Of a stretch of 62,976 nt of DNA, positions 29,347-62,976 are shown piece by piece. Where the stretch lies: the NCBI GenBank assembly GCA_964393535.1, contig CAYMUC010000002.1, positions 1-62,976 on the forward strand, given 5' to 3'. Position 1 is the stretch's first letter; every line of letters begins with the position of its first letter. The notes below the pieces were generated by a model, which worked only from the letters and a program-made list of their open reading frames with translations, was not told where the DNA came from and ran no database searches. Source of the stretch: an uncultured Ilumatobacteraceae bacterium (GTDB lineage: Bacteria > Actinomycetota > Acidimicrobiia > Acidimicrobiales > Ilumatobacteraceae). Both the position numbers and the translations under genes were made by a program.

Positions 29347-29358
29347 GGCGTCGCCCGG

Positions 29359-34679: not shown

Positions 34680-35572
<893 letters not shown>

Positions 35573-36479: not shown

Positions 36480-36506
36480 CGTACCGGTCGGGTACCGTGC
36501 GCAGCG

Positions 36507-38361: not shown

Positions 38362-38365
<4 letters not shown>
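37352..38365 (-). CDS. meaB: Methylmalonyl-CoA mutase-associated G-protein chaperone MeaB/ArgK
   Basis: 337 aa. P-loop ([14 protein letters not shown]), [12 protein letters not shown] and NKAD. Directly downstream of, and overlapping, mutB. Confidence 0.9.
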
Positions 38366-40586
<2,221 letters not shown>

Positions 40587-40590
<4 letters not shown>

Positions 40591-42479: not shown

Positions 42480-42513
42480 CGTGCAGTGACTTTCGTTCGA
42501 CCGATAGGACACT

Positions 42514-47300: not shown

Positions 47301-47630
47301 GGCGAGCGCACGCTCCAGGCGAGCGGCGTACACCGCCCGCTTCGCCCGGTCACGGCCGAGCGCGTCGACGACGGTGTCGTGGTGCTCGGCGTCGTCACTG
47401 GTGAGGTGAGCCAATGCCTGGGTGAGCGAGGCACGAAGTCGCCCTCGCATCTCGGCTGTGGCAGCTTCGGTGAAGGTCACCAGGCACAGCGATGACACAG
47501 CGATGTCGTCCTCGGCGATGCTGCGCACCGCCAGCGCAGTCAGGGTGTAGGTCTTCCCGGTGCCGGCACTGGCCTCGATCATCATGAGGCCTTGGGGTAG
47601 GGGTCCGGTGACATCGAACTCGATACTCAT
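44331..47630 (-). CDS. recB: Exodeoxyribonuclease V beta subunit RecB (UvrD-like helicase + PD-(D/E)xK nuclease)
   Basis: 1099 aa. IEASAGTGKTYTL, VLIDEFQDTD, TIHKAKGLEF. C-terminal nuclease block: GSIDLV...WIADYKTN. Confidence 0.9.
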   Translation of the reverse strand: MSIEFDVTGPLPQGLMMIEASAGTGKTYTLTALAVRSIAEDDIAVSSLCLVTFTEAATAEMRGRLRASLTQALAHLTSDDAEHHDTVVDALGRDRAKRAVYAARLERALAELDTAWITTIHGWCARVLGSAGVWQSAAGTMVHDDGDVTEALHDVVVARYAVSGDLPAKVSDIAKAVRLRLSMPLAVMQCLDPADLSEATVAKQRKQAEGLALAHRLDEIVQLVDDVVTEVVTRRHRRGQQTFDGLLVETRRLLFDPVQRDLVETLRRRFEVVLIDEFQDTDQIQWDIFRQAFHEPLTDVAEAPIRRLVVVGDPKQSIYRFRAAELSAYLAARRVAGDQVRTLRVNRRSDPSLLAGVEHLLRDTTYGDDAVRFESVRAPEGTPWSRLGGVGVASVQMRLISDVPTDSSSLRRAVRNDVVATVQHLLGSEVYLDDPGAENGRRRLRPADIAVLTRSNDDATSTALDLSAVGVPAATASSNSVLESAAGQQWRVLLAALARPGHLPTARAAAVGWFVGVGLEHLVDDQRFVMADGVDVVDRLHQWAQDLERGGVPLLLRSLGAAGWQARLLSRVDGERHLTDIDHIAELLQAATAGRPVSAAAALESFDALEAAAEERVTATLLARRIDRDDDAVQVVTIHKAKGLEFPVVLCPYLWKSSPPRQGLPHASVHDTRLIDTLHIYGEKATEAIRRHLVPHDVKTADEEERRAEDRRLAYVALTRAKHRCIVWWAEPKKVSEFRAIIDAQGGPVALAARSEGAVDAVAAGTGTPSYTTSHATEIDELPEPAVATRELDRRWRIWSFTAIKAAADDALDVPVIGGADEVDATADAHDVEGAVGSDEPTPTAVATRLLAAPGGTRFGTTVHRILERCDFAHADLVGELTDRCQIELAHRGLDISPQQLAAGLIDVLETPLGGPADLPSLRHLARPDRLDELDFHLPLAGVSSQMVARALVEHLSPEDPAQTWASAVAAGALPADIDGRLTGSIDLVARCGTAQQVWIADYKTNRLGPTNGADQTELLDVMNHSHYWLQATLYLVAMHRYLRWRRSDYVPDRHLIGAAYLFVRAMTPDVPGAGVVWWRPPTAAIEAVDRVLGTGGVA

Positions 47631-47631
47631 C

Positions 47632-50600: not shown

Positions 50601-50958
50601 TGGCACGAGCCCTGCCGAGTTCGACCTCGTGCGAGCGGATCTCGGGAAGGGCACCGTCACGCAGCACGGTGGCCACGGCCCAGGTGAGGGTGTCGACACC
50701 CCAGAGGTCATGGCGATCGGTGAGGCCCAACGCCCGACGACCGATGGTGGCAGGAAACACCCACTCGATGTTGGCGACGATGCCGTGGGGACCACCGAGG
50801 CGTTGCGACAACTGCCAGGTGAGCCACGATCGCACGCCTTCGCCTGGAACGGCGACCACATCGGGCGCGAACAGGTCGCCAGACACGTCGGACAACACCG
50901 CTGCCAGTGGGTCGACAAGGGTGGTCAGTCCTGCCCCGACGGTGAGGTGTAGCGCCAT
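47632..50958 (-). CDS. recC: Exodeoxyribonuclease V gamma subunit RecC
   Basis: Trimmed to ATG 50958 (MALHLTVGAG). About 1108 aa. Its stop lies 1 nt before the recB start, and the RecC-like N-terminus is present. The call rests mainly on size and operon position. Confidence 0.85.
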   Translation of the reverse strand: MALHLTVGAGLTTLVDPLAAVLSDVSGDLFAPDVVAVPGEGVRSWLTWQLSQRLGGPHGIVANIEWVFPATIGRRALGLTDRHDLWGVDTLTWAVATVLRDGALPEIRSHEVELGRARAIADLFDRYGLRRPGMVLAWERGHDVDALGRPLPEAHRWQPVLWRALAQHFGQPSSAALAFDRLARLRDEGPVGHVPDRFVVAGVTGLAWFQLEVLSALALHREVHLLAPVPSVDMWQRIAEVIRRQRIGGRPVEFSRADDPTAHVPRHQLMRSWGRATREAQCNVLGVLGGEHSVAAAPRADRPEPPITLLDHLQAGLRADLDEPTVRVEADDSVRWHRCHGPARQADVVRDALLHLFERRHSDGTPSFEPRDVAVLCTDVATFAPLLEAAFAGAPEDGVPPIPVRVADRTLGGEAPLFDVASGLVGLLEQRWRRDDLLDLARLPAVRRRFGFSAGDLGLVEQWLLSTGVRWGLTPEDHHRVGLPEDLRSNTVQSGLDQLFVGAAMRSGVTHGPGGVAPTGDLEGDDLALLGTFAAFVELVGAHVRVLSESTTVPTWITRLRAAVSDLARLADGEAWQWGSLDRELAVFSETARLADPSHTDPVVDAIQLAQLVVARLGARPGRARFDTGAVTVSSLAGQRGVPRRVVVLVGLDEGLMGSGVAASDDMVAAAPLVGDPDPRAEWRAQLLDAVLAARDHLVLVSTGFEVRTNEVVAPAVALAELVEAVDALVEGGSHGRTWVIDHPRQPWNPRALQPGALGEPGAWTFHRGAAALSASARLPRIVGAVLTGSLTRETGDLTLSELIRGVTRPVEALLRDRCGMALPSAGDDSPTVLPLDLDALEAWTMRDRMVSTVVSARDPAEAEAAMTLQLDLLRRRGLLPPLALGDAVADGLRTDISNLVAIARSLGAQLDLPGEVIDVDIVLDDLSPRRVTGRIPQIHGTQLVRLSASQFRLEQVLSAWVELVLLTVALPDRTWSAVVVGRDTTKAGAKGRTLALTSVEAAQEALSVVVDLVDRARCEVIPFDVDLSDALYRSGLDTLLTSWGAGRGASARRWIAWALADTELETLLEAPAWPDATDESWGGGGRLEQWAHRLWSAFDATVRSEDD

Positions 50959-51045
50959 GTGGAGCACGGTACTCAAGGGGTGTGGCACGCCTTTACGGGC
51001 CAGAGATCACGAGGCTCGACGCATGCAACGCCGTAGGGTGGGTGG

Positions 51046-52869
51046 GTGAATGTAGAGACATCCCCCGCGGCAGAAGGGTTCGCCGCACTGGGACTCCGAG
51101 CCGAACTGCTCGAAGCCCTCGCCGATCTGGGCCACGCCGAGCCCACCCCCATTCAGAAAGCGGCCATACCCGCTCTGCTCGAAGGACGAGATGTGCTGGG
51201 CCAGGCTGCAACCGGCACCGGCAAGACCGCAGCCTTCGCCCTCCCACTGCTGCAGCGTCTGGGTGACCTCAACCAACCTCGCCGTGCTGTGGAACCCATG
51301 GCCCTGGTGCTGGTGCCCACCCGTGAACTCGCCATGCAGGTCTCGGTGGCCATCGAGAGCTACGGCGCCCAACTCGGTGTGCGCGTCATCGCCGTGTACG
51401 GAGGCCAACACCCCGGTGTGCAGCTGAACGCACTTCGGCGCGGCGTGGACGTGGTGGTGGCCACACCTGGTCGTGCGCTGGATCACCTGCGACGCGGCGC
51501 CCTCGACCTCAGCGGTGTGGAGGTGGTAGTGCTGGACGAAGCCGACGAGATGTTGGACATGGGCTTCGCCGAGGATCTCGAAGCCCTGCTCGGAGCGACA
51601 CCGTCCGATCGCCAGACCATGTTGTTGTCGGCCACCATGCCGCAGCGACTGGTGGCCATCGCCTCGAGCAATCTGCGCGATCCACTGCAGATCCGCCTCA
51701 CTCCGAAGGCCACTCCCACCGGCGAACTCCCTCGCATCAGCCAGCGGGCCTATGTGGTTCCCCGTGGGCTGAAGGCCGTGGCGCTGGCCCGCCTGCTCGA
51801 GTTCGAGGCACCGGCGGCCGCCATCGTGTTCTGCCGCACCCGCACCGACGTCGACGAGGTGACCGCCGCATTGATCACCCGTGGCGAGCGGGCCGAAGCC
51901 CTGCACGGCGGTATGGATCAGGCCCAGCGCGATCGCGTGATGTCCCGCCTGCGATCGGGAGCCGCCCGCCTGTTGGTGGCCACCGATGTTGCGGCCCGAG
52001 GCCTCGACATCGATCACCTCACCCACGTGGTGAACCACGACGTTCCCACTGCCGCCGAGTCGTACGTGCACCGCATCGGCCGTGTGGGACGCGCCGGTCG
52101 TCAAGGGGTGGCACTCACCCTGGTGGAACCCCGCGAGGTGCACCGCCTCAAGCAGGTGGAACGCCTCACCCGTCAACCCGTCGAGGTACTGGCCATCCCC
52201 TCCGCGGAGGAGGTTCGCGCCCGTCAGTTGGCACGCACCGTGGAGGAGATCCGCCGCACCACCGTGGAAGTGCAGGTCGAGCCATACCGAGGTGCCCTCG
52301 CCGAGTTGATCGGTGAAGTCGGCCTCGAGGCCGTCGCGCTGGCCGCTGCTCGTCTGGTCCACGAAGACCGCACCGCCTCGGTGGACGACACCGACATCCC
52401 CGACCTCCGGCCTTCAGAACCCAAAGAGCGCGGGCCTCGCGCCGTACGCGTCGACGAGCGCGGCGCAAAGCGGCGCAACGACGGCGGTGATGGATCGCGC
52501 GGTGGTGAACGTCAAATGCTGTCGGACCGCACCCGCACCGCCCATGTATGGGTAGGCCTCGGCCGTGACGCCGGTGTTCGCCCGGGAGACCTGGTGGGTG
52601 CCATCGCAAATGAAACCGGCCTGACGGGGCGCGATATCGGCACCGTGCGAATCCAGGACCACTACTCGGTGGTCGAGGTGCCCGCATCGGCAGAGGACGA
52701 AGTGATCGTGTCGCTGGGTCGCACGCTGATCCGCGGCCGCAAGGCCACGGTGCGACGCTTCGATGCGTCGCGATCGCCGCAGGGGCCCAACTCGGCACGC
52801 GCGCCCAAGGCGCGACCAGACTTCCGGGATGGCAAACCGAAAAAGCCCCGACCGCGCCGAGGCGACTGA
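51046..52869 (+). CDS. DEAD-box ATP-dependent RNA helicase (DeaD/CsdA-like, C-terminal DbpA-type RNA-binding domain)
   Basis: 607 aa. Q motif (GFAALGL..PTPIQ), AATGTGKTAAF, VLDEADEML, SAT, HRIGRVGRAGR. Basic C-terminal tail. Confidence 0.92.
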   Translation: MNVETSPAAEGFAALGLRAELLEALADLGHAEPTPIQKAAIPALLEGRDVLGQAATGTGKTAAFALPLLQRLGDLNQPRRAVEPMALVLVPTRELAMQVSVAIESYGAQLGVRVIAVYGGQHPGVQLNALRRGVDVVVATPGRALDHLRRGALDLSGVEVVVLDEADEMLDMGFAEDLEALLGATPSDRQTMLLSATMPQRLVAIASSNLRDPLQIRLTPKATPTGELPRISQRAYVVPRGLKAVALARLLEFEAPAAAIVFCRTRTDVDEVTAALITRGERAEALHGGMDQAQRDRVMSRLRSGAARLLVATDVAARGLDIDHLTHVVNHDVPTAAESYVHRIGRVGRAGRQGVALTLVEPREVHRLKQVERLTRQPVEVLAIPSAEEVRARQLARTVEEIRRTTVEVQVEPYRGALAELIGEVGLEAVALAAARLVHEDRTASVDDTDIPDLRPSEPKERGPRAVRVDERGAKRRNDGGDGSRGGERQMLSDRTRTAHVWVGLGRDAGVRPGDLVGAIANETGLTGRDIGTVRIQDHYSVVEVPASAEDEVIVSLGRTLIRGRKATVRRFDASRSPQGPNSARAPKARPDFRDGKPKKPRPRRGD

Positions 52870-52894
52870 ACTTTCACGTCCTGCGGGCAGCGAG

Positions 52895-53611
52895 GTGCCC
52901 GTGGGCGTGGATGCGCCCCTGTTGGATGTCATGGCCACCATGCGGGCCATGCGACGCCTGAAGCCCGATCCGGTCCCGCGTGAGGTCTTGACCGACATCG
53001 TGCGCGCTGCCACGTGGGCACCCAGCGGATCCGACGCCCAGCACTACGGCTTCGTGGTGGTGACCGACCGAGCGGCGATGGCGCAGTTGGCCGACCTGTG
53101 GCGTGACTGCGTGCACACCTACACGACCCTGATGGGCACCGTGGTGCCCGACGCCTCCGACGACCGTCACGCCCGCATGGCCGACGCACTTCGTTACCAG
53201 GCCGAGCACTTCCACGAGACGCCAGCCGTGATCGCTGCCTGCTATCGCCGCTCGGGCCCCGGGATGAAGCAGTTGCTCGATGTGCGCAACAACGTGGCCC
53301 TTGCTCGCCAACTCGGCGCCGCACGCCTGCGGCGGCTGGCTGCAGGGGGTCGGGCGGCCACCAATCTCGCCGAAGCCTCCAGTATCTACCCCGCAGTGCA
53401 GAACCTGTTGCTGGCTGCCCGCGCCCATGGACTCGGGGCGACGCTCACCATCTGGCATCTGTTTCGCGAGGCCGACTTCCGGCGTGTGCTGGGCATACCC
53501 GATGACCACGGCCTCTACGCCCTGGTGCCGGTCGGCTACCCGGTGGGGCGCTTCGGCCCAGTACGCCGACGCCCCGTGAACGACGTGCTGCACTGGGACC
53601 GCTGGTCCTGA
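52895..53611 (+). CDS. Nitroreductase-family flavoprotein
   Basis: MRAMRRLKPDPVPREVLTDIVRAATWAPSGSDAQHYGFVVV. The start is uncertain: GTG 52895 avoids overlap, while ATG 52829 would overlap the helicase gene by 41 nt. Confidence 0.8.
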   Translation: MPVGVDAPLLDVMATMRAMRRLKPDPVPREVLTDIVRAATWAPSGSDAQHYGFVVVTDRAAMAQLADLWRDCVHTYTTLMGTVVPDASDDRHARMADALRYQAEHFHETPAVIAACYRRSGPGMKQLLDVRNNVALARQLGAARLRRLAAGGRAATNLAEASSIYPAVQNLLLAARAHGLGATLTIWHLFREADFRRVLGIPDDHGLYALVPVGYPVGRFGPVRRRPVNDVLHWDRWS

Positions 53612-53630
53612 GAATTTTTCGCCGATCAGG

Positions 53631-54908
53631 TTGCCATGCGAACACCTGTTCGTTATCGTGCGTTGCGTGCCTGAGTCGACCGATCCACTCATCGCCATCC
53701 GAGCCGCGGTCGACGCCTTGGCTCGCCTCGACCAGTCGCAACTCTGCACGGCCGAGATCGCCGAGTTGGCCGTGGGGTTGCAGCAACAGCAGCAGCGACT
53801 GGATGCGCTCGCAGCGCAACTGCTGGACCGATGGCAGGACGGTGGCCTGTGGGCCGCCGACGGGTCTCGCAGCGCAGCAACCCATCTGGCACGAGAACTC
53901 CGCGCCGGTGTCGCCACGTGCCGACGCGAACTGCGCCGGGCGAGGGCCACCAGGGAACTTCCCCTGGTGGCCAAGGCCATCATCGCTGGTGACCTCTCCC
54001 TGGATCACCTCGACCTGTTCGCTGCCACTCGCACCGACGCTCGCGCTGCGGCCATGGATCGTGATCAGCCGTTCCTGGTCGATCACTGTCGAGGCATGAA
54101 CTACGCCGAGGCTCGCAAGCTCCTGGCCTACTGGGCGAACGCCCACGACGCCACCTTGCCCTTGGCTGACGCCAACGGCCATGTGGACTCATCGCAGGTG
54201 TTCCTGTCGGAGACGCTCGACGGGACATGGCGCCTCGACGGCACACTCGACCCGCTGGCCGGTGGCATCGTGTCGACCGAGCTTCAACGGCTGGAGCGAC
54301 TGATCCAGGAACGCGACGCCGCCGCAGGAAGGGAGCGCACACCCTCTCAGCGTCGTGCGGCGGCCCTGCTCGAGATGGCCCAGCGTTCGTCATCCCACGA
54401 CCACGCACGACTGCCAGCTCGACCACTGTTCACCGTGCTGGTGGGTCAAGACGCACTGAAGAACCTGTGCGAACTCGCCGACGGCACCGTCATCGCGCCC
54501 GGTCAACTCATGCCGTGGCTCAGCACCGCCGACTACGAATCCATCCTGTTCGACGGACCCCACACCGTGATCTCGGTGTCGCACCGCCGCCGCTTCACCG
54601 GCGCTCTACGCCGGGCCATCGAGGTGCGCGACCGGCGCTGCACCCACCCATCCGACTGCGATATCCCGGCCAGCCGCTGCGATGTCGACCACATCGTGCC
54701 GCACTCCCAGCACGGACCCACCAGCCAGTTCAACGGTCGCCTGCAGTGCGCAACGCACAACCGCAACCGCGAGCGGCACGCCAGCTCGCCGATGAGACCC
54801 ATGCCCCACCGGTCCATCACCGAACTCGACCACATCCGGGGCCGACTGCGCTACCAGTACCTTAGCGAGTCCTCCGACGACCCCGAATCCGAAACGGTCA
54901 GCCGATGA
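53631..54908 (+). CDS. DUF222 + HNH endonuclease protein (REP13E12-type)
   Basis: 425 aa (alternative start GTG 53667). C-terminal HNH block: RDRRCTHPSDCDIPASRCDVDHIVPHSQHGPTSQFNGRLQCATHNR. The N-terminal helical region is typical of actinobacterial DUF222 proteins. Confidence 0.8.
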   Translation: MPCEHLFVIVRCVPESTDPLIAIRAAVDALARLDQSQLCTAEIAELAVGLQQQQQRLDALAAQLLDRWQDGGLWAADGSRSAATHLARELRAGVATCRRELRRARATRELPLVAKAIIAGDLSLDHLDLFAATRTDARAAAMDRDQPFLVDHCRGMNYAEARKLLAYWANAHDATLPLADANGHVDSSQVFLSETLDGTWRLDGTLDPLAGGIVSTELQRLERLIQERDAAAGRERTPSQRRAAALLEMAQRSSSHDHARLPARPLFTVLVGQDALKNLCELADGTVIAPGQLMPWLSTADYESILFDGPHTVISVSHRRRFTGALRRAIEVRDRRCTHPSDCDIPASRCDVDHIVPHSQHGPTSQFNGRLQCATHNRNRERHASSPMRPMPHRSITELDHIRGRLRYQYLSESSDDPESETVSR

Positions 54909-55848
54909 GCGGTGCCAGCGTCGCACCCAACAGGGCCACGCGCTCGGGAACATGGCCGTTGGCGGGCATGTTCACCGTGAACCCATCCACGCCCAAGGCG
55001 AGATCGGCGGCGAACTGCTCACCCACGGTGTCGGGATCGCCCACGACGAACCGATGCATCGCTTCGGGGCCCAAGCCCCGGCGGTCGAGCATCTCCTGCA
55101 ACTCCGCCCGAGCCTGCTCCATGGTCGGCGCGATGCAGGCCGATCGCTGCCACGACACCGTGATCTCGGAACGGTCCCGGCCCAGTCGATCACAGTGGTC
55201 GGCCAGCACCTCGAGCTTGCGGGCCACATCACGGCGGTCGCAGATCAGGTTCGACTCATCGGCGTACTGGGCCACCATCCGCAACGTCTTTCTCTCACCG
55301 CCGCCACCGATCATCACCGGAATGTGCCCCACCTGTGCGGGCGAACAGAAGGCCTCATGCATCTGGTAGTGCGCCCCCTCGAAGCTCACCCGTTCACCTC
55401 GCAACATGGGCCGAATGATCTGCAGTGCTTCTTCCAGTTTCTCGAACCGTTCCGTGAACGTGCCGAACGGAATGCCGAAGGCCTCATGCTCGAGTTCGAA
55501 CCAGCCGGCGCCGATTCCCAGTTGTGCCCGCCCCTGCGACACCACGTCGAGAGTGGTCACCGCCTTGGCCAACACGGCCGGGTTCCGGTAGGTGTTGCCG
55601 GTGACGAGCACCCCCAGGCGCACCGTGGTGGTGACCCCGGCCAGGGCACCCAGCAGCGTGTAGCACTCCAGCATGAACTCGTCGGGCGCACCCAGCATGG
55701 GCAACTGGTAGAAGTGGTCCATCACCAGCACGGTGTCGAACCCCGACTGGTCAGCTTCTCGGGCCTGACGAGCGATCACCGGGTACACAGTGGCCTGGTC
55801 GGTGTCGGGGTAGGTGAAGGACGGAATCTGGTAGCCGAGGCGGGTCAT
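54898..55848 (-). CDS. Luciferase-like monooxygenase family, probable F420-dependent oxidoreductase
   Basis: The 3' part of track ORF 54898..57102, starting at ATG 55848 (MTRLGYQIPSFTYPD). LLM blocks: FDTVLVMDHFYQ, LGIGAGWFELEHEAFGIPF. Confidence 0.85.
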   Translation of the reverse strand: MTRLGYQIPSFTYPDTDQATVYPVIARQAREADQSGFDTVLVMDHFYQLPMLGAPDEFMLECYTLLGALAGVTTTVRLGVLVTGNTYRNPAVLAKAVTTLDVVSQGRAQLGIGAGWFELEHEAFGIPFGTFTERFEKLEEALQIIRPMLRGERVSFEGAHYQMHEAFCSPAQVGHIPVMIGGGGERKTLRMVAQYADESNLICDRRDVARKLEVLADHCDRLGRDRSEITVSWQRSACIAPTMEQARAELQEMLDRRGLGPEAMHRFVVGDPDTVGEQFAADLALGVDGFTVNMPANGHVPERVALLGATLAPLIG

Positions 55849-55872
55849 GGCTGGGCAACGTACCCTGTAGCG

Positions 55873-58380
55873 ATGACGCTGGCCGATCGGCTTCCCACTC
55901 GCGGGTCGGATCCACTGGACGTGGTGGAGGCATTCGCTGCCTGGGCGGCCGACGGTGGCCGACCGTTGTACCGGCATCAGGACGATGCCACCATGGCCCT
56001 CGCTGCGGGTGAGCATGTAGTACTCGCCACACCCACGGGTTCGGGCAAGAGCCTCGTGGCTACTGCCGGTGTGGCACTCGCGTTGAACCGGGGCGAACGG
56101 GCGGTGTGGACCGCTCCCATCAAGGCACTGGTGGCCGAGAAGTTCTTCGAGTTGGTGAACCTGTTGGGCGCCGAGCGCGTGGGCCTGGCCACCGGAGACG
56201 CTTCCATCAACGCCGACGCCGAGGTGCTGGTGTGCACTGCCGAGGTGTTGGCCAACCACGCCCTGGCCACCGGCGCCAACAGCCCGTTCGGGTTCGCCTG
56301 CCTGGACGAGTTCCACTACTACGGCGAGGCCGACCGGGGTTGGGCGTGGCAGGTGCCGTTGCTGGAGATGACCCACTGCCAGATGCTGCTGGCCTCGGCC
56401 ACCTTGGGCGACGTGACGGCCCTGGTGCACGACCTCGAGGAGCGCTCGGGGCGAGCCGTTGCCGAGGTGACCTCGGTGCAACGCCCCACACCCCTGCATC
56501 ATCAGTGGCGCACCACGGCGGTGGCCGACAGCGTGCGCGATGCCATCGAAGAGGGCCTCAGCCCGGTGTACGTGGTGCACAGCACCCAGGCCGCCGCCAT
56601 CGAACGCGCCCAGGCACTCGCCAGCCTGCCCTTCACCACCCGAGCCCAGCGCGAGGCCATCGCCGAGGCCCTCCGCGGCGTCAAGGCCACACCGGGGTTC
56701 GGTGTGGTGCTGCACCGGTTGCTCGGCCACGGCGTCGGGGTGCATCACGCTGGCATGCTGCCCAAGCACCGTCGCCTGGTGGAACGCCTGGCCAGCGATG
56801 GCCTGTTGCCGGTGGTGTGTGGTACCGACACTCTGGGGGTGGGGGTCAACCTGCCCCTGCGCACCGTCATCATGTCGGCCCTCACCAAGTTCGACGGCCG
56901 TCGGGTGCGCACCTACACCGCCCGGGAGTTCCATCAGTTGGCCGGTCGCGCCGGCCGCCCCGGCTTCGATCCCGACGGCCACGTGTGGGCGCAGGCACCC
57001 GACCATGTCATCGAGAACCTCCGGTCCTTGGCCAAGGCCGGCGACGACCCGAAACTGCGCAAGAAGGCCGCCAAGGCCAAGCCACCCGAAGGCTTCGTGC
57101 ACTACGACGAGACCACGTTCCAGCGCCTCATCGCCGCCACCCCCGAGCCCCTGGTGTCACGGTTCCGCGTCACCGCCGACCTGGTGGCCACGGTGTTGAC
57201 CCGACCCGACGGACCCACGGCACTGAAGCATCTCCTGCGCACCAACCATGACCCCGAACCCCGCCGACGTCAGCACCGGCGTCGCGCCCTGGCGGTGTAC
57301 CGCAGTCTGGAAGCCGCTGGCGTGGCGGCTCGGCGCCGTGACGCTCAGGGACGCTGCATCGGTGTGGACGTCGGGTCGCTCATCGACGACTCCACCGACC
57401 GTGCCGCACTGCGGTTCTCGTCGCCGCTGCTGCCCTTCGCCCTCGAAGTGATCGCCACCTTCGATTCCGAGGATCCCACCTACGTGGTGGACGTGATCAG
57501 TGTGATCGAGTCGGTACTCGACGAACCCCGCCAGATCGTGGCCGCTCAACTGAATGCTGCTCGCGCACAGGCCGTTGCCACCATGAAGGCCGACGGCGTC
57601 CCCTACGAGGAACGCATGGCGCGCCTCGACGAGGTGACCGCTCCCCGGCCCTTGGCCGAGTTGTTGAGCGCCTGCTTCACCACCTACTCCGAGCGACATC
57701 CTTGGGTGGACGCCGTCCCCGCCCCCAAGTCGGTGCTGCGCGAGATGCTCGAATCGGGTGACACCTTTGCCACGTTCGTACGCCGCTACCGCCTGGATCG
57801 CAGCGAAGGACTGGTCCTTCGCTACCTCAGCGATGCCTGGCGCACGCTCGACCGATCGCTGCCAGACGCAGTGTTCACCGACCAACTCGAAGACGTGGTG
57901 ACGTGGCTCGGGCAGTTGATCCGCGCCACCGATGCCACCCTGCTGGAGGAGTGGGAACGCCTGGCTGGCGCGTCGCATCACGAACATCTCGAACCCGCGG
58001 CACCCGTGCTGGGTCCACCCGGTCCCCCACCTGCCTGGCGTACGGCGGTGCGAACGGCGGCGTTCGGATGGGTGGACCTGCTGGCACGCCGGGCCTACGA
58101 CGCACTGGCCGAACGCTGCGGCTGGACCCCCGAGCAACTCCACGCCGCCATGGCACCGTATTGGGCCGAGCACGCAGCCCTGTACACCGACGCCGACGCT
58201 CGATCGACCACCATGTTCGAACTCAGGGAGGAATCCGACCGGTGGGTGATCACCCAACGCCTCTCCGACCCCGAGGGCAGCGGCGAATGGCGGTTCGTAG
58301 CGCATGTCCCTCTGGCCGAGTCACTCGACCAGGGAGCACCCCTGCTGGTGATGCAGTCGCTGAGTCATCTGGCATCATGA
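55873..58380 (+). CDS. DEAD/DEAH-box (Ski2-like) helicase with a long C-terminal DUF3516-like domain
   Basis: Trimmed to ATG 55873. About 835 aa. Motifs: VLATPTGSGKSLVA, LDEFHYYG, SATLG, QLAGRAGRPGFD. Confidence 0.85.
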   Translation: MTLADRLPTRGSDPLDVVEAFAAWAADGGRPLYRHQDDATMALAAGEHVVLATPTGSGKSLVATAGVALALNRGERAVWTAPIKALVAEKFFELVNLLGAERVGLATGDASINADAEVLVCTAEVLANHALATGANSPFGFACLDEFHYYGEADRGWAWQVPLLEMTHCQMLLASATLGDVTALVHDLEERSGRAVAEVTSVQRPTPLHHQWRTTAVADSVRDAIEEGLSPVYVVHSTQAAAIERAQALASLPFTTRAQREAIAEALRGVKATPGFGVVLHRLLGHGVGVHHAGMLPKHRRLVERLASDGLLPVVCGTDTLGVGVNLPLRTVIMSALTKFDGRRVRTYTAREFHQLAGRAGRPGFDPDGHVWAQAPDHVIENLRSLAKAGDDPKLRKKAAKAKPPEGFVHYDETTFQRLIAATPEPLVSRFRVTADLVATVLTRPDGPTALKHLLRTNHDPEPRRRQHRRRALAVYRSLEAAGVAARRRDAQGRCIGVDVGSLIDDSTDRAALRFSSPLLPFALEVIATFDSEDPTYVVDVISVIESVLDEPRQIVAAQLNAARAQAVATMKADGVPYEERMARLDEVTAPRPLAELLSACFTTYSERHPWVDAVPAPKSVLREMLESGDTFATFVRRYRLDRSEGLVLRYLSDAWRTLDRSLPDAVFTDQLEDVVTWLGQLIRATDATLLEEWERLAGASHHEHLEPAAPVLGPPGPPPAWRTAVRTAAFGWVDLLARRAYDALAERCGWTPEQLHAAMAPYWAEHAALYTDADARSTTMFELREESDRWVITQRLSDPEGSGEWRFVAHVPLAESLDQGAPLLVMQSLSHLAS

Positions 58381-58386
58381 ACGACG

Positions 58387-58863
58387 ATGCCGTTTCGTGA
58401 TGGTGATGGATGGGTGGCCTGCCTGTGCGGTCGGCCCCACTGGGGTCTGTATGGGGCCGCCGGCCTGTTGCTCGTTCGCCGCGACTTGAACGAACCCCAT
58501 GTGCTGCTGCAACTCCGAGCGGCGTGGACGCACGGGGGCGGCACCTGGGCGCTACCCGGCGGAGCGCTCGACTCACATGAGGATCCGGTGGCGGCCGCCG
58601 CCCGCGAAGCTCACGAGGAAGCAGGCATCGACCCTGCACATATCGAGGTGAAGAGCATCTTCACCGACGATCACGGCAACTGGGGCTACCACACGGTGAT
58701 CGCCCACTGCACCGGTGACGCCGGAGCGTTCGAGGCCAACGCCGAGTCCGACGAGGTGCGCTGGGTGCCGTTGCACCAGGTGGCCGACTACGCCTTGCAC
58801 CCCGGCTTTGCCGCCTCGTGGACCCAGGTGCGGGGCCACGTGGACACATCGCTCATGGCGTGA
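58387..58863 (+). CDS. NUDIX hydrolase
   Basis: 158 aa. Nudix box: GGALDSHEDPVAAAAREAHEEAGI. Confidence 0.8.
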   Translation: MPFRDGDGWVACLCGRPHWGLYGAAGLLLVRRDLNEPHVLLQLRAAWTHGGGTWALPGGALDSHEDPVAAAAREAHEEAGIDPAHIEVKSIFTDDHGNWGYHTVIAHCTGDAGAFEANAESDEVRWVPLHQVADYALHPGFAASWTQVRGHVDTSLMA

Positions 58864-59911
58864 GGGGTTCCACCTCGAAGTCCTCGGCCGTGGTGGCGGT
58901 GTCGGACAACGGCACGTAGTACGTGTTCCCCTTCGACACCCAGTCGCCCACCATCTGGAAGAACGCCGGCCCAGCAGCATCGATTCCTCGGATGGGCATG
59001 GAGCCGCGCCGGATGGTGAAGTCGTGAGGAGCCAGTTCGCCAGCCCGCACGAACCACCGTTCGGCAGCCTCGGTACGTCCCTGCTGCGTAAGCCACCACG
59101 CCACGGCGAAACAGGCTCGGGCCTCCTGGTCGGCGGCCGTGGGAACCTTGGTATCGGCGAGCACGTCGCCCGAGTACGCCGGGGCCTCGCCCCGCACCCA
59201 CGCCCGCAGTGCCGCCAACGGCTTGCGGGGATGGAACTTCGTGACCGCCGAATACTCGGCCGACACGTAGTGCACGTCCTGGGGACGCACGATGCGGAAC
59301 TGCTCGTCGATCCACACCACCGTAGGCACATTGACCATGTTGTAGAGGTCTGCGGCACGGTGTTCGGTGTCGACCAGGCTGGGATGCGTGGCACCCGCCC
59401 GTTCCACCCAGGGTCGAGCGTCGTCCAGTGAGCGGTCGATGGCGACCGTGATCACCGACAGGCCTTCGGGGCCGAGTTCTTCGTTGATCGCCTGCCACAC
59501 GGGCAGGTCAGCGCGACACCCTCACCAACTGGCGTAGGCGTACAGCACGATCTTGCGACCCTGATGATCGCTGAGGCGGTGCAGCACCCCGTTCACATCG
59601 GGCAACTCGAAGTCGGGGGCCAGACCCGATCGCAACGCCTCGGCACGCTCGTGAGCCGACGCCCCCAGCGCCGCCACCCGCTCCTGCGGATCCACCACCA
59701 CGGGTCGACCCAAGAGCGCCCCCAGTCGATCGAGTGGAAGCGGACCCGAGGCCACGCCAGCAGGTACGGGAATGCAGACGTCCCCACGACACAGTCCCTC
59801 GGGTTTGCGCTCCCAACCCACCAGGGCGGCATCGATCAACGGCATTCCCTCGATGTCGTCGGCCTGCACGGTGTGCACGGCCTGTTCGTCGATCACGGTC
59901 CACGTGTTCAT
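58853..59911 (-). CDS. ResA/TlpA-like thioredoxin-fold protein with an in-frame TGA at the active-site position (candidate selenoprotein; alternatively a pseudogene)
   Basis: Track ORFs 59522..59911 and 58853..59500 share one frame and are separated only by TGA (59524-59522) and 7 sense codons. Read through, the junction is FELPDVNGVLHRLSDHQGRKIVLYAYASW-U-GCRADLPVWQAINEELGPEGLSVITVAID, which matches the TlpA/ResA block FWASWCGPCR. Total about 352 codons. Confidence 0.6.
59487..59517 (-). promoter_or_regulatory. SECIS-like stem-loop downstream of the in-frame UGA
   Basis: Minus-strand RNA: UGA GGGU-GUCG-CGCUGA-CCUGCC-CGUGU-GGCAGG-CGAU. There is a perfect 6-bp upper stem (59507-59502 with 59496-59491), a 5-nt loop containing GU, and a 4-bp lower stem including one G-U pair. 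The loop lies 24-28 nt from the U of UGA. Confidence 0.4.
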
Positions 59912-59930
59912 GAGTGCGACCTCCCCTGGG

Positions 59931-60236
59931 TCAGAGCAGCATGTTACGCACCAGCGCGGTGACCGCTGCGCCCGACACGATGATGACGATGAGCGGTGCC
60001 CGCCGCCAGGCCAGCACGGCAGCCACGCCCACGCCTACTGCACGGGCGTCGACCACCAGTTCCTGACCACTCGCGAACGTGTCCTTCACGATGAGCGCCG
60101 CCACGAGTGCGGCAGGAATGAGCGCCAGGCAACGGTCCACGACTGCAGGCAGTTGCCGTCCGCCAAGCACCACGAGACCGGTGACCTTGAACGCGTAGGC
60201 CACCGCCGCCAGCACCAACACCAGCGTCCAGGTCAC
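59931..60236 (-). CDS. azlD: AzlD-family branched-chain amino acid exporter small subunit
   Basis: The 3' 101 codons of track ORF 59931..61610, starting at GTG 60236 (GTGA overlap with the azlC stop). Very hydrophobic: VTWTLVLVLAAVAYAFKVTGLVVLG... Confidence 0.75.
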   Translation of the reverse strand: MTWTLVLVLAAVAYAFKVTGLVVLGGRQLPAVVDRCLALIPAALVAALIVKDTFASGQELVVDARAVGVGVAAVLAWRRAPLIVIIVSGAAVTALVRNMLL

Positions 60237-60895
60237 GGTCGCCGCACCCCCACCAGCACCGCCGTGGCAGCGGCCAGGATGGGCAACCCGACGGGCAGCA
60301 CAGGAATGGTCACCAAGCAGATACCAGCCCCCAGCAACGCCGCAAGGCGGTCCCGCCGCCGGCTGAGCAACGGGGCGATCATGCCCACGAACGCGGCGGG
60401 AAAGGCCGCGTCGAGGCCGAAGCGTTGGGGGTCCACGGCCGAGCCGGCAAGCGCCCCGATGAGCGTGCCCAGGTTCCAGAACACGTACACCGAGGCTCCG
60501 GTCACCCAGAACGCCCGCTGAGCATCGTCGGAATGTGACTGGGCGGCAGCCATGGCGGTGGACTCGTCGATGGTGATCTGCGCCGCCACGAGACGACGAG
60601 CCAGCGAGCCACCCAACACCCCCGACATGGCCAAGCCGTAGACGCCGTTGCGAGCCGCCAACAACACTGCGCCACCCAATGCCGCACCCAACGAACCACC
60701 GGCCGCGATGACGCTGACCGCCGACAACTGGGATGCCCCGGTGAAAACGAGCAGCGACATGGCACAGGTCTGCCACACGCTGGCGCCCGCGGCGACAGCC
60801 CCCACACCGAACGACAACCCGATGATGCCGACAGCGATGCCCAGCGTGATGCCGGCACCGGTGACGGCCGAACGGGTGGAGGCCTGCCGGCTCAT
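60233..60895 (-). CDS. azlC: AzlC-family branched-chain amino acid exporter subunit
   Basis: Trimmed to ATG 60895, an ATGA overlap with the glgB stop. About 220 aa, polytopic. AzlC-like blocks: FTGASQLSAV, LLAARNGVYG. Confidence 0.8.
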   Translation of the reverse strand: MSRQASTRSAVTGAGITLGIAVGIIGLSFGVGAVAAGASVWQTCAMSLLVFTGASQLSAVSVIAAGGSLGAALGGAVLLAARNGVYGLAMSGVLGGSLARRLVAAQITIDESTAMAAAQSHSDDAQRAFWVTGASVYVFWNLGTLIGALAGSAVDPQRFGLDAAFPAAFVGMIAPLLSRRRDRLAALLGAGICLVTIPVLPVGLPILAAATAVLVGVRRP

Positions 60896-62778
60896 GGGCG
60901 GCGAGCGGCCAACCACAGCACCGCCAGCGGAGGTATGTCCAGCACCACCGACGCCGGCTGACCTTGCCAGGGCACGGTCGTGGACTCGAGCCAACGGGGT
61001 GACGACGAGCGGTACCCGCTCCCCGCCCACTCGACATCGTCGGTGTCGACGACGATCTGCCACGTGGCGGCCCATGGCACCCCCACCCGGTAGCCGTGCC
61101 GTGGCACCGGCGTGAGGTTCGCCACGCACACGATGGCATCGCCGCCACCCTCACCCGAGGCGATGCCCCATCGCACGAAGGCGTACGCCGAATGTTCGGC
61201 GTCGTCGGCATCGAGCCAGGCGAACGCGGCGGGGTCGTGTTCGCGGGCCGATACCGCCGACCATTCCTCGGCGAGGTGACCGAGATGCGCCAACAGGGCG
61301 TGCACACCGGCGTGGGGAGCGTGTTCCAGCAGGTGCCAGGGCAGGGCTTGGGTCTCGGACCACTCGGTCCACGGCGCCAACTCGGCACCCATGAACAGCA
61401 GGGCATCGCCGGGGTGAGCCAGCATCCAGGCGTACAACGCCCTGAGGTTGGCGAACCGCTGCCAGTCATCGCCAGGCATCTTCGCCAGCAACGAGGCTTT
61501 GCCGTGGACGACCTCGTCGTGGCTGAGCGGCAGCACGAAGGTCTCGCTGAAGCCGTACAACAGCCCGAAGGTGAGCTGATGATGATGCCAGCGCCGGTGC
61601 ACGGGCTCACGAGAGAAGTACGACAAGGTGTCGTTCATCCACCCCATGTTCCACTTGTGGGTGAAGCCCAACCCACCCGCTTCGGGGGGCAGCGTGACCC
61701 CGGGCCACGCCGTGGACTCCTCGGCTGCCATCACGGCACCGGGATGGGCGGCGAGGACCGAGACGTTCACCTGCTGCAGCAGCGACATGGCCTCCAGGTT
61801 CTCCCGGCCGCCGTGGCGATTGGGCAACCATTCGCCCTCGGCACGGCTGTAGTCGAGGTACAGCATGGACGCCACCGCGTCGACGCGCAGCCCGTCCACG
61901 TGGAACTCGTGGAACCAGTAGTGGGCGTTCGACAGCAGGAAACTGCGCACCTCGTTGCGGCCATAGTTGAACACGTAGGTACCCCAATCGGGGTGCTCGC
62001 CCCGGCGAGGGTCGAGGTGCTCGTACAGGGCGCTGCCATCGAAGCGGCCCAGCGCCCAGTCGTCTTTGGGGAAGTGGGCGGGCACCCAGTCCAGCACCAC
62101 ACCCACCCCGTGCGCATGAAGCACGTTCACGAAGGTGCGCAGATCGTCGGGGGTGCCGTAGCGGGCAGTGGGGGCGAAATAGCCCGACACCTGATACCCC
62201 CACGACCCGCCGTAGGGGTGTTCGGCCACGGGCATGAGTTCAACGTGGGTGAACCCGAGGTGGCGAACGTGGCGGGCCAGGGGTTCGGCCAACTCCACGA
62301 AGGTGTGTCCCGGCGTGCTGGGCCGCCACGATCCGAGGTGCACCTCGTAGATGCGCATGGGTCGCTCGCCGGCGCGACGACGATCGCGTTCGACCAACCA
62401 TGCGCTGTCGGACCAGGCGAACGCCGACTCGCCCACCACGATGCTGGCATCCGATGGTGGTAGTTCAGCACGCCGGGCCATCGGGTCGGCTTTCCAGCGC
62501 TCTAGGCCGTCGGCCCCGATGACGACGTACTTGTAGCGCTGATCGGGCATCGCCTCGGGCACGTGTACCACCCACACACCCGACGAACCCTGTGGCGTCA
62601 TGGGGTGACGACCGGCGTCCCAGTCGTCGAAGTCACCGACCACCGCCACTCGGCGGGCTCCCGGTGCCCACACGGCGAAGCGGACACCTCCCTCGGGTAC
62701 CACATGCGCCCCGAGCACCTGCCACAACCGTCGATGCGTGCCCTCGTTGAACAGGTGGAGGTCCACGTCGCCCGGCAC
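60892..62778 (-). CDS. glgB: 1,4-alpha-glucan branching enzyme
   Basis: 628 aa. FAVWAPGARRVAVVGDFDDWD (CBM48). GH13 catalytic blocks: GVVLDWVPAHFPKD, GLRVDAVASMLY, AEESTAWPGV, LSHDEVVHGK. Confidence 0.92.
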   Translation of the reverse strand: MPGDVDLHLFNEGTHRRLWQVLGAHVVPEGGVRFAVWAPGARRVAVVGDFDDWDAGRHPMTPQGSSGVWVVHVPEAMPDQRYKYVVIGADGLERWKADPMARRAELPPSDASIVVGESAFAWSDSAWLVERDRRRAGERPMRIYEVHLGSWRPSTPGHTFVELAEPLARHVRHLGFTHVELMPVAEHPYGGSWGYQVSGYFAPTARYGTPDDLRTFVNVLHAHGVGVVLDWVPAHFPKDDWALGRFDGSALYEHLDPRRGEHPDWGTYVFNYGRNEVRSFLLSNAHYWFHEFHVDGLRVDAVASMLYLDYSRAEGEWLPNRHGGRENLEAMSLLQQVNVSVLAAHPGAVMAAEESTAWPGVTLPPEAGGLGFTHKWNMGWMNDTLSYFSREPVHRRWHHHQLTFGLLYGFSETFVLPLSHDEVVHGKASLLAKMPGDDWQRFANLRALYAWMLAHPGDALLFMGAELAPWTEWSETQALPWHLLEHAPHAGVHALLAHLGHLAEEWSAVSAREHDPAAFAWLDADDAEHSAYAFVRWGIASGEGGGDAIVCVANLTPVPRHGYRVGVPWAATWQIVVDTDDVEWAGSGYRSSSPRWLESTTVPWQGQPASVVLDIPPLAVLWLAARRP

Positions 62779-62820
62779 GGGGCTGAAGCGTAGGTGGTCC
62801 CAGGCGCTACCGTCCCCCGA

Positions 62821-62976
62821 GTGCGCGTGCTGATGCTGTCATGGGAGTATCCGCCGTTGGTGGTGGGAGGTATCGCCGCCCATGCCGAGGGCTTGGCCAC
62901 GGCCATGGTGCGTGCCGGTCACGACGTCACGGTGCTCACGCTTCACCATCCGGATGCCCCCGAGGACGCGGTGGTG
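62821..62976 (+). CDS. GT4-family glycosyltransferase (glycogen-synthase-like), N-terminal 52 codons; runs off the window
   Basis: Not in the ORF track. Translation from GTG 62821: VRVLMLSWEYPPLVVGGIAAHAEGLATAMVRAGHDVTVLTLHHPDAPEDAVV. It has the EYPP..GG...H N-terminus typical of GT4 enzymes and is divergent from glgB. Confidence 0.7.
   Translation, partial: MRVLMLSWEYPPLVVGGIAAHAEGLATAMVRAGHDVTVLTLHHPDAPEDAVV

What the first reader, a model, noticed from the sequence alone, without database searches (positions are those of the whole stretch)
58853..59911. In-frame UGA at the active-site position of a ResA/TlpA-like thioredoxin-fold protein (YASW-U-GC): candidate selenoprotein
The 129-aa ORF (59522..59911) and the 215-aa ORF (58853..59500) are in the same minus-strand frame. 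Only TGA (59524-59522) and 7 sense codons separate them. Read through, the junction is ...GRKIVLYAYASW-[TGA]-GCRADLPVWQAINEELGPEGLSVITVAID.... The TGA therefore sits where TlpA/ResA-type proteins carry the first redox Cys (generic block FWASWCGPCR).

Cutting here would split the thioredoxin fold between strand beta-1 and the active-site helix, so two independent proteins seem unlikely. The motif is U-G-C with one spacer residue, not C-x-x-C, which is unusual in its own right.

I have an unverified recollection of a RefSeq family name along the lines of 'ResA-like WAxxUGC motif'. If that is correct, the family has been catalogued but, as far as I know, not characterised experimentally. Selenoproteins other than formate dehydrogenase are rare in high-GC actinobacteria. 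The protein also has an N-terminal ~75-aa domain containing CRGDVC and a ~120-aa C-terminal extension.
Basis: partly seen in the sequence, partly recalled or inferred. Interest (0 to 1): 0.8.

Follow-up and report, generated by a model that had tools for sequence, protein, structure and literature searches.

The report
Selenocysteine gene split by annotation
The in-frame TGA is almost certainly a selenocysteine codon in one 352-residue thioredoxin-fold redox protein, but this U-G-C selenoprotein family has been catalogued computationally since 2008, so this is a correct call on a known, experimentally uncharacterised family.

Summary
TGA at 59524..59522 (minus strand) joins a 129-aa ORF and a 215-aa ORF in one frame, giving ...YAYASW-U-GCRADLPVWQ... 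(352 aa).

The selenoprotein reading is strongly supported:
- The same column is TGA in 83 sequences (81 non-redundant) from about 75 species of many phyla, and TGC/TGT in 14 Cys forms.
- Both halves are under purifying selection (dN/dS about 0.1-0.4).
- TGA is the normal stop in this contig (25 of 26 confident ORFs, including this gene).
- A 5-6 bp hairpin with a GU-containing 5-nt loop starts 15 nt after the UGA. It is intact in 83/83 Sec forms but in only 3/14 Cys forms, with compensatory changes at synonymous sites.
- A related Acidimicrobiales chromosome carries selA-selB about 10 kb from its copy.

The Sec machinery of this genome could not be checked, because the window is a whole 62,976-nt contig without it.

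[quoted passage not shown] The window protein scores 237.8 bits against NF041054, below its cutoff of 300.

The protein is cytoplasmic. It has an N-terminal Cx4C domain with no solved relative, a ResA-like fold with a one-residue deletion in CxxC, and a TPR-like tail.

The parts
58853..59911 (-). Complete recoded coding sequence of a 352-residue selenoprotein (ATG 59911; Sec-UGA 59524..59522; true stop TGA 58855..58853).
   Evidence: Searches show a single frame. dN/dS is 0.16-0.46 upstream and 0.10-0.44 downstream of the TGA against 15 relatives. Full-length Cys homologues of 340-350 aa align end to end.
59920..59926 (-). Shine-Dalgarno-like GGGGAGG 8 nt upstream of the ATG. No comparable site lies close to the GTG at 59500.
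   Evidence: Read directly from the sequence.
59627..59911 (-). N-terminal beta-rich domain (about residues 1-95) that carries the conserved Cx4C pair.
   Evidence: AF2 model of the window's 129-aa ORF has pLDDT 85.6, and the full Cys-form model has pLDDT 92.5. Foldseek against the PDB gives no match better than E 0.86, and Pfam has no hit.
59774..59791 (-). Codons for C41-R-G-D-V-C46, the Cx4C pair.
   Evidence: Invariant in alignments A1 and A3. Present in 83 of 88 family genes and absent from five Rokubacteria Sec forms.
59237..59626 (-). ResA/TlpA-like thioredoxin-fold domain (about residues 96-225).
   Evidence: Pfam AhpC-TSA E 4e-15 and Redoxin E 5e-10. PDB profile hits to ResA, TlpA, DsbE and StoA at E 1e-19 to 1e-20. 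Foldseek TM 0.82-0.86 to ResA, normalised to the target.
59522..59524 (-). UGA read as selenocysteine (residue 130), at the position of the first (nucleophilic) Cys of the thioredoxin-fold CxxC motif.
   Evidence: TGA in 83 sequences and TGC/TGT in 14 in the same column. Aligned to ResA Cys74. TGA is the ordinary stop of 25/26 confident ORFs in the window.
59516..59518 (-). TGT codon for Cys132, the predicted resolving cysteine of the U-G-C motif.
   Evidence: Invariant column in all alignments. Its role is an inference.
59491..59507 (-). Predicted bacterial SECIS-like hairpin. The 5' arm is 59507..59502 (CCUGCC), the loop 59501..59497 (CGUGU) and the 3' arm 59496..59491 (GGCAGG). It starts 15 nt after the UGA and overlaps codons D-L-P-V-W-Q-A.
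   Evidence: Energy is -10.4 kcal/mol, with pair probabilities 0.89-0.94 in a 90-nt context. RNAalifold recovers it from 79 sequences. Cells paired are 97.9% against 25-61% in slid controls, and two pairs show C-G to U-A compensation. It is intact with a GU loop in 83/83 Sec forms against 3/14 Cys forms. The Leu wobble base in the stem is G in 83/83 Sec forms, against 47% at other Leu codons of the same genes.
58856..59236 (-). C-terminal all-helical, TPR-like domain (about residues 226-330) followed by an acidic tail.
   Evidence: AF2 places helices at 230-337 of the homologue. Weak TPR_2/TPR_14 Pfam hits cover residues 264-302, and consensus-TPR PDB hits cover 262-304.

Best explanation
Positions 58853..59911 (minus strand) are one gene for a 352-residue cytoplasmic selenoprotein of the 'UGC-containing Prx-like/TlpA-like' family.

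Decoding: UGA at 59524..59522 is decoded as selenocysteine. A short mRNA hairpin 15 nt downstream (CCUGCC-CGUGU-GGCAGG, with GU in the loop) is read as a bacterial SECIS element by SelB bound to GTP and Sec-tRNASec. This delivers Sec to the ribosome in competition with release factor 2.

Product: the protein has three domains. The first is an N-terminal beta-rich domain with a Cx4C pair. The second is a ResA-like thioredoxin fold. Its active site is U130-G-C132, a CxxC shortened by one residue, with Sec in the nucleophile position at the N-terminus of helix alpha-1. The third is a C-terminal TPR-like helical domain.

Inferred chemistry: the Sec130 selenolate attacks an oxidised substrate, such as a protein disulfide, sulfenate or peroxide. 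Cys132 resolves the intermediate into an 11-membered selenenylsulfide ring, which is re-reduced by a cellular thiol system. The TPR-like domain probably selects a protein partner.

What is shown: the conserved recoded UGA, the Cys/Sec pairing, coding constraint on both sides, the Sec-specific hairpin, the fold, and the cytoplasmic location.

What is inferred: actual Sec insertion in this organism, the catalytic cycle, the substrate, and any role of the Cx4C pair.
For: - Frame and junction.
- The NF041054 'WAxxUGC' family is the top NCBIfam hit.
- Full-length homologues have Cys in the UGA column, and S-W-[U/C]-G-C-R is invariant.
- TGA in 83 sequences and Cys codons in 5 among species-representative genomes of Actinomycetota, Chloroflexota, Methylomirabilota, Binatia, Proteobacteria, Planctomycetota and Spirochaetota.
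- dN/dS well below 1 on both sides of the TGA.
- TGA is the stop of 25/26 confident ORFs in the window and of 60/88 family genes, so the code is not reassigned.
- Hairpin evidence: Fisher p = 3.7e-12 for Sec against Cys forms, not corrected for phylogeny.
- selA and selB lie about 10 kb from the orthologue on a 3.31-Mb Acidimicrobiales chromosome, and SelB is abundant in Acidimicrobiia MAGs.
- A good SD precedes the ATG and none lies near the internal GTG.
- Structure: pLDDT 92.5, pTM 0.89, ResA-like core.
- No hydrophobic segment: maximum Kyte-Doolittle mean 0.98 over 19 aa.
- The literature lists the family as a predicted selenoprotein (PMC2398784; PMC13188914).
Against: - The Sec machinery and tRNA-Sec of this genome could not be examined. 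The window has no SelA/B/D homologue, no tRNA and no Rfam hit, and it is a whole contig.
- The hairpin is short (5-6 bp), and its arms lie on codons for the conserved peptide L-P-x-W-Q, so part of its conservation comes from protein constraint. The 76-nt region does not fold better than shuffles (z = +0.7).
- tRNA-Sec and selD were not found in the related chromosome segment either. The ARAGORN call inside selA is not supported by Rfam.
- No experiment on any family member was found.
- Five Rokubacteria members lack the Cx4C pair, so that pair cannot be essential to the core chemistry.
- There is no conserved gene neighbour to indicate a substrate.
Confidence: 0.88

Rival explanations
1. The TGA is a genuine stop. 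The locus holds two independent genes, or a gene broken by a nonsense mutation (a pseudogene), giving a 129-aa product and perhaps a 215-aa product re-initiated at GTG 59500.
For: Public gene callers annotate it this way. All close relatives in the protein database are 215-240-aa fragments starting at M/VWQ, with a separate ORF of about 129 aa upstream. TGA is the usual stop in this contig.
Against: The split would cut a thioredoxin fold between strand beta-1 and the active-site helix. The identical split occurs in 81 non-redundant sequences across many phyla, with purifying selection on both parts. Cys-form homologues are single proteins of 340-350 aa. No SD lies near the GTG. A nonsense pseudogene would not persist with dS near saturation.
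Confidence: 0.03
2. The UGA is read through in this organism, but not as selenocysteine. Decoding would be near-cognate as Trp or Cys, or inefficient readthrough in a lineage that has lost the Sec pathway, leaving the gene a relic on its way to a Cys codon or to decay.
For: Sec machinery was not demonstrable for this genome. Sec-to-Cys conversions do occur in the family, as the Cys forms are scattered among Sec forms.
Against: The SECIS-like hairpin, including its synonymous-site constraint, is fully intact in the window. The closest relatives (87-88% identity, syntenic locus L002) keep TGA. SelB is common in Acidimicrobiia, and selA-selB co-occur with the gene in a relative. Loss of the pathway would quickly select for TGC/TGT.
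Confidence: 0.06
3. The TGA is a sequencing or assembly error for TGC/TGT, or the organism uses a code in which TGA is a sense codon.
For: None specific. These are generic possibilities for a single MAG contig.
Against: The same TGA appears in about 75 independently assembled genomes and several metagenomes. TGA terminates 25/26 confident ORFs in the window, including this gene.
Confidence: 0.01

Closest known systems
[quoted passage not shown]
   Same: It shares the thioredoxin-fold protein hitting pfam00578/TlpA-like models, a single Sec in a U-G-C motif, and many Cys homologues. The 2008 paper reports it as more abundant in non-marine samples, which fits the freshwater/soil Acidimicrobiia, Rokubacteria and Chloroflexota hosts seen here.
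   Different: I could not retrieve the published example (MDE0950781.1) to confirm it is the same three-domain 'long' form. In the passages I searched, the papers give only a table entry. I found no description there of the SECIS element, the N-terminal Cx4C domain, the TPR-like tail or the cytoplasmic location.
NCBIfam NF041054.1 WAxxUGC_long, 'ResA-like WAxxUGC motif-containing protein' (equivalog)
   Same: It is the best NCBIfam hit (E 2e-70). The aligned region covers profile positions 16-319 of 354, and the length (352 against 354) and U-G-C motif match.
   Different: The score of 237.8 bits is below the curated cutoff of 300, as are all tested relatives of this clade, Sec and Cys forms alike (236-275 bits). 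The motif here is Y-A-S-W-U-G-C, with Tyr in place of the first Trp. In several relatives the best-scoring stretch ends near profile position 203-205, so the C-terminal region may be more divergent. This looks like a sister clade to the model's seed sequences.
ResA / TlpA / CcmG(DsbE) / StoA extracytoplasmic thiol-disulfide oxidoreductases
   Same: The thioredoxin-fold core is shared (Foldseek TM 0.82-0.86; profile E about 1e-19). So are the APDF...LxD entry motif, the W-C active-site context at the start of helix alpha-1, and the cis-Pro loop (NVPT).
   Different: Those proteins are membrane-anchored or secreted, have C-x-x-C, are single-domain, and sit in cytochrome c maturation or sporulation contexts. 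This protein has no signal or anchor, has U-x-C through a one-residue deletion, carries two extra domains, and has no conserved neighbours.
Engineered and natural C-x-C redox motifs (the CGC motif studied as a protein disulfide isomerase mimic; Mia40 CPC). This comparison rests on my own knowledge and was not tested here.
   Same: Two redox-active chalcogen residues are separated by one residue, closing an 11-membered ring on oxidation. That ring is less stable than the CxxC ring and so favours exchange or isomerase-type chemistry.
   Different: Here the first position is Sec and the motif is embedded in a native thioredoxin fold. No redox potential or activity is known.

Membership tests
Bacterial selenoprotein gene (general criteria) | In-frame UGA conserved among orthologues, with coding constraint on both sides | tested here: met
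   TGA in 83 sequences (81 non-redundant) in the same column. dN/dS is 0.10-0.46 on both sides.
Bacterial selenoprotein gene (general criteria) | Homologues with Cys aligned to the UGA | tested here: met
   Full-length Cys forms P0056, P0059, P0066, P0068, P0085 and P0092, plus 14 Cys-form loci with TGC/TGT.
Bacterial selenoprotein gene (general criteria) | SECIS stem-loop immediately downstream of the UGA, with a conserved G/GU in the apical loop | tested here: met
   A hairpin of 5-6 bp starts 15 nt after the UGA, with GU in the loop in 83/83 Sec forms. RNAalifold recovers it, compensatory changes are present, and it is lost in 11/14 Cys forms. No dedicated bSECIS program was available. The hairpin is short and overlaps conserved codons.
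Bacterial selenoprotein gene (general criteria) | selA, selB, selD and tRNA-Sec present in the same genome | not testable with these tools
   The window is a whole 62,976-nt contig with none of them. In a related Acidimicrobiales chromosome, selA and selB lie about 10 kb from the orthologue. tRNA-Sec and selD were not located.
NCBIfam NF041054 WAxxUGC_long | HMM score at or above the curated cutoff (300 bits) | tested here: not met
   237.8 bits with Cys substituted for Sec. Eight relatives of the clade score 236-275 bits.
NCBIfam NF041054 WAxxUGC_long | W-A-x-x-U-G-C motif | tested here: inconclusive
   The window has Y-A-S-W-U-G-C. A-x-x-U-G-C is met, but Tyr replaces the first Trp. Rokubacteria relatives have W-A-S-W-U-G-C.
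NCBIfam NF041054 WAxxUGC_long | 'Long' architecture of about 354 residues | tested here: met
   352 residues, with the match spanning profile positions 16-319 of 354.
UGC-containing Prx-like/TlpA-like selenoprotein family (PMC2398784, PMC13188914) | Thioredoxin-fold protein matching pfam00578/cd02966-type models, with one Sec in a U-G-C motif | tested here: met
   PF00578 E 4e-15 and PF08534 E 5e-10, U-G-C at 130-132, and the table entries read. cd02966 itself was not searchable here.
ResA/TlpA/CcmG extracytoplasmic thiol-disulfide oxidoreductases | C-x-x-C active site | tested here: not met
   U-G-C / C-G-C. The profile alignment shows a one-residue gap against ResA CEPC.
ResA/TlpA/CcmG extracytoplasmic thiol-disulfide oxidoreductases | N-terminal membrane anchor or signal peptide (exported protein) | tested here: not met
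   No hydrophobic segment; the maximum 19-residue Kyte-Doolittle mean is 0.98. The N-terminus is a folded beta domain.
ResA/TlpA/CcmG extracytoplasmic thiol-disulfide oxidoreductases | Thioredoxin fold with the TlpA/ResA-type insertions | tested here: met
   Foldseek TM 0.82-0.86 (normalised to the target) to ResA 1st9, 2f9s and 3c73.
Peroxiredoxin (AhpC/TSA, PxxxTxxC) | Thr/Ser three residues before the peroxidatic Cys/Sec (TxxC/TxxU) | tested here: not met
   The sequence reads Y-A-S-W-U, so residue -3 is Ala. The NCBIfam PrxQ and Bcp equivalog models score far below their cutoffs.

The most novel reading that the evidence does not exclude
The family may not be a generic TlpA-like reductase. 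It may be a distinct cytoplasmic three-domain selenoenzyme in which the N-terminal beta domain forms a second redox or metal/metalloid-binding centre. That domain has no solved structural relative and carries a Cx4C pair conserved in 83/88 members. It would communicate with the strained U-G-C selenenylsulfide site, while the TPR-like tail recruits a specific protein client. This would be a new kind of Sec-dependent relay with an unknown substrate.
Probability: 0.2. Interest if true: 0.5.

Novelty: new member of a known kind. Interest (0 to 1): 0.3.

Why it matters
Practically, this gene and its dozens of orthologues in Acidimicrobiia, Chloroflexota, Rokubacteria and other MAGs are stored in public protein databases as two fragments, about 129 aa and 215-240 aa. 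The closest NCBIfam model does not reach its cutoff for this clade. A whole clade of selenoproteins is therefore mis-annotated and under-counted in freshwater and soil bacteria.

Biologically, the family is widespread, overwhelmingly in the Sec form (83 of 88 copies in the genome-collection sample), cytoplasmic, and of unknown function. It has an unusual one-spacer U-x-C site and an N-terminal domain with no solved relative.

The clean contrast between Sec and Cys forms at synonymous sites gives a compact, testable SECIS element of 17 nt placed 15 nt after the UGA. That could be useful for studying SelB recognition outside the model organisms.

None of this overturns current understanding. It fills in a known but uncharacterised entry of the prokaryotic selenoproteome.

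Tried and rejected
- Folding 76 nt downstream of the UGA as one piece gave an MFE no better than shuffles (z = +0.7), and its long-range pairing is not conserved in relatives. The short hairpin was found only by comparison.
- tblastn of E. coli SelA, SelB and SelD against the window gave no hits. ARAGORN and Rfam on the window found nothing.
- ARAGORN called a tRNA-SeC at L086:9059-9144, but it lies inside the selA coding region. Rfam finds nothing there even at E <= 1, so I rejected it as a false positive.
- No tRNA-Sec was found in the flanks of about 85 loci.
- An exact look-up of the window's 129-aa and 215-aa ORFs in the contig collection found nothing on record. A cluster look-up then showed that the window is a whole NCBI contig.
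I modelled the closest Cys form and the window's N-terminal ORF instead.
- Foldseek of the N-terminal domain against the PDB gave no significant match.
- Clustering ORFs within +/-7 kb of the gene in about 80 loci found no partner conserved across phyla. The best cluster is lineage-specific synteny in 16 Rokubacteria loci, an HpcH/HpaI-aldolase-like gene judged by eye.
- A scan of the window for other in-frame TGAs with coding signal on both sides found only ordinary gene junctions.
- The metagenome DNA-pattern scan for W-C-G-C-R-x-D returned mostly chance matches. Only 9 of 120 were family members.
- I considered a peroxiredoxin reading because AhpC-TSA is the top Pfam hit. I rejected it as a membership claim because the TxxC/TxxU signature is absent.
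Full report
**1. Observation.**
On the minus strand an ATG at 59911 opens a 129-codon ORF that ends at TGA 59524..59522. Seven sense codons later a GTG at 59500 opens a 215-codon ORF in the same frame, ending at TGA 58855..58853. Reading through gives 352 residues with the junction ...GRKIVLYAYASW-U-GCRADLPVWQ.... The CRGDVC motif is at residues 41-46.

**2. What the protein is.**
- Pfam finds AhpC-TSA (E 4e-15) and Redoxin over residues 98-208, and weak TPR hits at 264-302.
The score of 237.8 bits is below the curated cutoff of 300, however.
- Eight relatives of this clade, Sec and Cys forms alike, also score only 236-275 bits. The clade therefore looks like a sister group to the model's seed sequences.
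- A profile of the family against PDB sequences hits ResA, TlpA, DsbE and StoA (E about 1e-19 to 1e-20). The alignment reads WASWCG.CRED against ResA WGTWCEPCKKE. The UGA column is thus the first, nucleophilic Cys of CxxC, and the family has lost one spacer residue.
- An AlphaFold2 model of the closest full-length Cys form (P0056, 51% identical) has pLDDT 92.5 and pTM 0.89. It shows three domains: an N-terminal beta-rich domain, a thioredoxin fold and a C-terminal helical bundle.
- Foldseek matches the core to ResA with TM 0.82-0.86.
- The window's own 129-aa ORF models well (pLDDT 85.6), but its fold has no significant PDB match (best E 0.86).
- There is no hydrophobic segment. Unlike ResA and TlpA, the protein is cytoplasmic.

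**3. Is the UGA a selenocysteine codon?**

*(a) Homologues.*
- In the protein database every close relative (65-88% identity) is a 215-240-aa fragment beginning at M/VWQ. The more distant full-length relatives (340-350 aa) read ...AYASW-C-GCR....
- DNA of three such relatives shows the same in-frame TGA.
- A scan of species-representative genomes returned 80 loci. The nearest are Acidimicrobiia/Ilumatobacteraceae MAGs. More distant ones come from Chloroflexota, Methylomirabilota/Rokubacteria, Binatia, Alpha-, Gamma- and Deltaproteobacteria, Planctomycetia, Spirochaetales and Dormiibacterota.
- Together with the window and three loci fetched earlier, the column is TGA in 83 gene copies (81 non-redundant) and TGC/TGT in 5.

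*(b) Coding constraint.*
- dN/dS against 15 relatives is 0.16-0.46 upstream and 0.10-0.44 downstream of the TGA, with synonymous sites near saturation.

*(c) Genetic code.*
- TGA terminates 25 of 26 confident ORFs in the window, including this gene, and 60 of 88 family genes. The internal UGA must therefore be recoded by context.

*(d) Translation start.*
- A GGGGAGG Shine-Dalgarno sequence sits 8 nt before the ATG. Nothing comparable lies near the internal GTG.

*(e) SECIS element.*
- Fifteen nucleotides after the UGA lies the hairpin CCUGCC-CGUGU-GGCAGG (59507..59491). Its energy is -10.4 kcal/mol and its pair probabilities are 0.89-0.94.
- All 83 Sec forms keep the five core pairs and a GU in the 5-nt loop.
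- RNAalifold recovers the helix from 79 distinct sequences.
- 97.9% of cells are paired, against 25-61% when the partner is slid. Two pairs show C-G to U-A compensation at synonymous sites: CTG...CAG to TTG...CAA, and GAC...G to GAT...A.
- The arms lie on the conserved peptide L-P-x-W-Q, so I made two checks that separate RNA constraint from protein constraint. First, the Leu wobble base that pairs in the stem is G in 83/83 Sec forms, but in only 47% of other Leu codons in the same genes. Second, among 14 Cys-form genes only 3 have an intact stem plus a GU loop. These 14 are the 5 from the genome scan and 9 from a metagenome pattern scan whose pattern ends before the stem. Their Leu codon is CTC, CTG or CTT. 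Fisher p is 3.7e-12, uncorrected for phylogeny.

*(f) Sec machinery.*
- The window has no SelA/B/D homologue, no tRNA and no Rfam hit. It turns out to be an entire 62,976-nt NCBI contig, so this genome cannot be assessed from here.
- On a 3.31-Mb Acidimicrobiales chromosome (OZ243889.1), the TGA-bearing orthologue lies about 10 kb from a selA-selB pair.
- SelB homologues named as the Sec-specific elongation factor are abundant in Acidimicrobiia MAGs.
- A tRNA-SeC call by ARAGORN inside selA is not supported by Rfam and is discounted.

**4. Mechanism.**
- Shown: a conserved recoded UGA with a Sec-specific downstream hairpin; Sec at the nucleophile position of a ResA-like fold; an invariant Cys two residues later; a cytoplasmic three-domain architecture.
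- Inferred: SelB-dependent insertion of Sec130. The selenolate then attacks an oxidised substrate, and Cys132 resolves the intermediate to an 11-membered selenenylsulfide. From general knowledge of C-x-C motifs, that ring should be less stable than a CxxC ring and favour exchange chemistry. A cellular thiol system then re-reduces it. The TPR-like tail probably binds a protein client.
- The Cx4C pair is present in 83 of 88 members but missing from five Rokubacteria Sec forms. It may be an accessory redox or metal site, but it is not essential.
- No neighbouring gene is conserved across phyla, so the substrate remains unknown.

**5. Comparison with what is known.**
- A full-text search for 'WAxxUGC' found no paper.
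[quoted passage not shown] It cites Zhang & Gladyshev 2008 and Peng et al. 2016.
- The 2008 GOS paper lists 'Prx-like (UGC-containing)' with pfam00578, 46 Sec sequences and 855 Cys homologues, more abundant in non-marine samples (PMC2398784).
- The 2005 Sargasso Sea paper already recorded one Prx-like sequence with UXC (PMC1088965).
- I found no experimental characterisation.
- The window gene is therefore a new member, in a clade below the NCBIfam cutoff, of a catalogued predicted selenoprotein family. It works like a ResA/TlpA-type oxidoreductase in fold, but fails three defining features of that group: the CxxC motif, export, and the single-domain, cytochrome c maturation context.

**6. Verdict.**
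The finding is real, but it is neither new in kind nor very surprising to a selenoprotein specialist. Its residual interest lies in four points:
- systematic mis-annotation of this clade as two ORFs;
- the compact SECIS element with a clean Sec-versus-Cys contrast;
- the U-x-C active site;
- the uncharacterised N-terminal domain.

Interest is 0.3.

Noticed in passing
window 1..62976: The window is a complete contig. A 215-aa member of the closest protein cluster (P0244, source NCBI) sits on a contig of exactly 62,976 bases. This is why the rest of the genome, including any sel genes, is out of reach.
   Followed up: partly
window 58853..58863: The 3' ends of the selenoprotein gene (minus strand, stop 58853-58855) and the convergent NUDIX-family gene (58387..58863, plus strand) overlap by 11 nt.
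   Followed up: no
L033, L034, L036, L037, L055 (about 9100-10310 in each locus): Chloroflexota MAGs (Tepidiformaceae, Dehalococcoidia, Anaerolineaceae) carry two tandem copies of the gene about 1.1 kb apart. Both have the in-frame TGA and the hairpin, but lack the optional sixth base pair.
   Followed up: partly
L061, L070, L071, L072, L074 (N-terminal region of the homologue): Five Rokubacteria/Methylomirabilota Sec forms lack the N-terminal Cx4C segment that 83 of 88 family members have. The cysteine pair is therefore dispensable in some lineages.
   Followed up: partly
L110, L125, L197: Soil and other metagenomes hold a more divergent, apparently Cys-only subgroup with ...WASWCGCRSDLSGWRKLREEL.... 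Its codons do not form the hairpin (3 of 5 pairs).
   Followed up: no
L086:9059-9144: ARAGORN calls a tRNA-SeC inside the selA coding sequence of an Acidimicrobiales chromosome. Rfam finds nothing there even at E <= 1, so this is probably a false positive in GC-rich coding DNA.
   Followed up: yes
L023 (about 10379-10425): One Actinomycetota relative has CGG (Arg) instead of CAG (Gln) in the 3' arm of the hairpin. This amino-acid change still preserves pairing (U-A becomes U-G).
   Followed up: no
window 54952..58380 (+): The mechanical 1142-aa ORF is about 300 residues longer than the DEAD/DUF3516 helicase called at the syntenic position in L002 (818-837 aa). The true start is therefore probably well downstream of 54952.
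   Followed up: no
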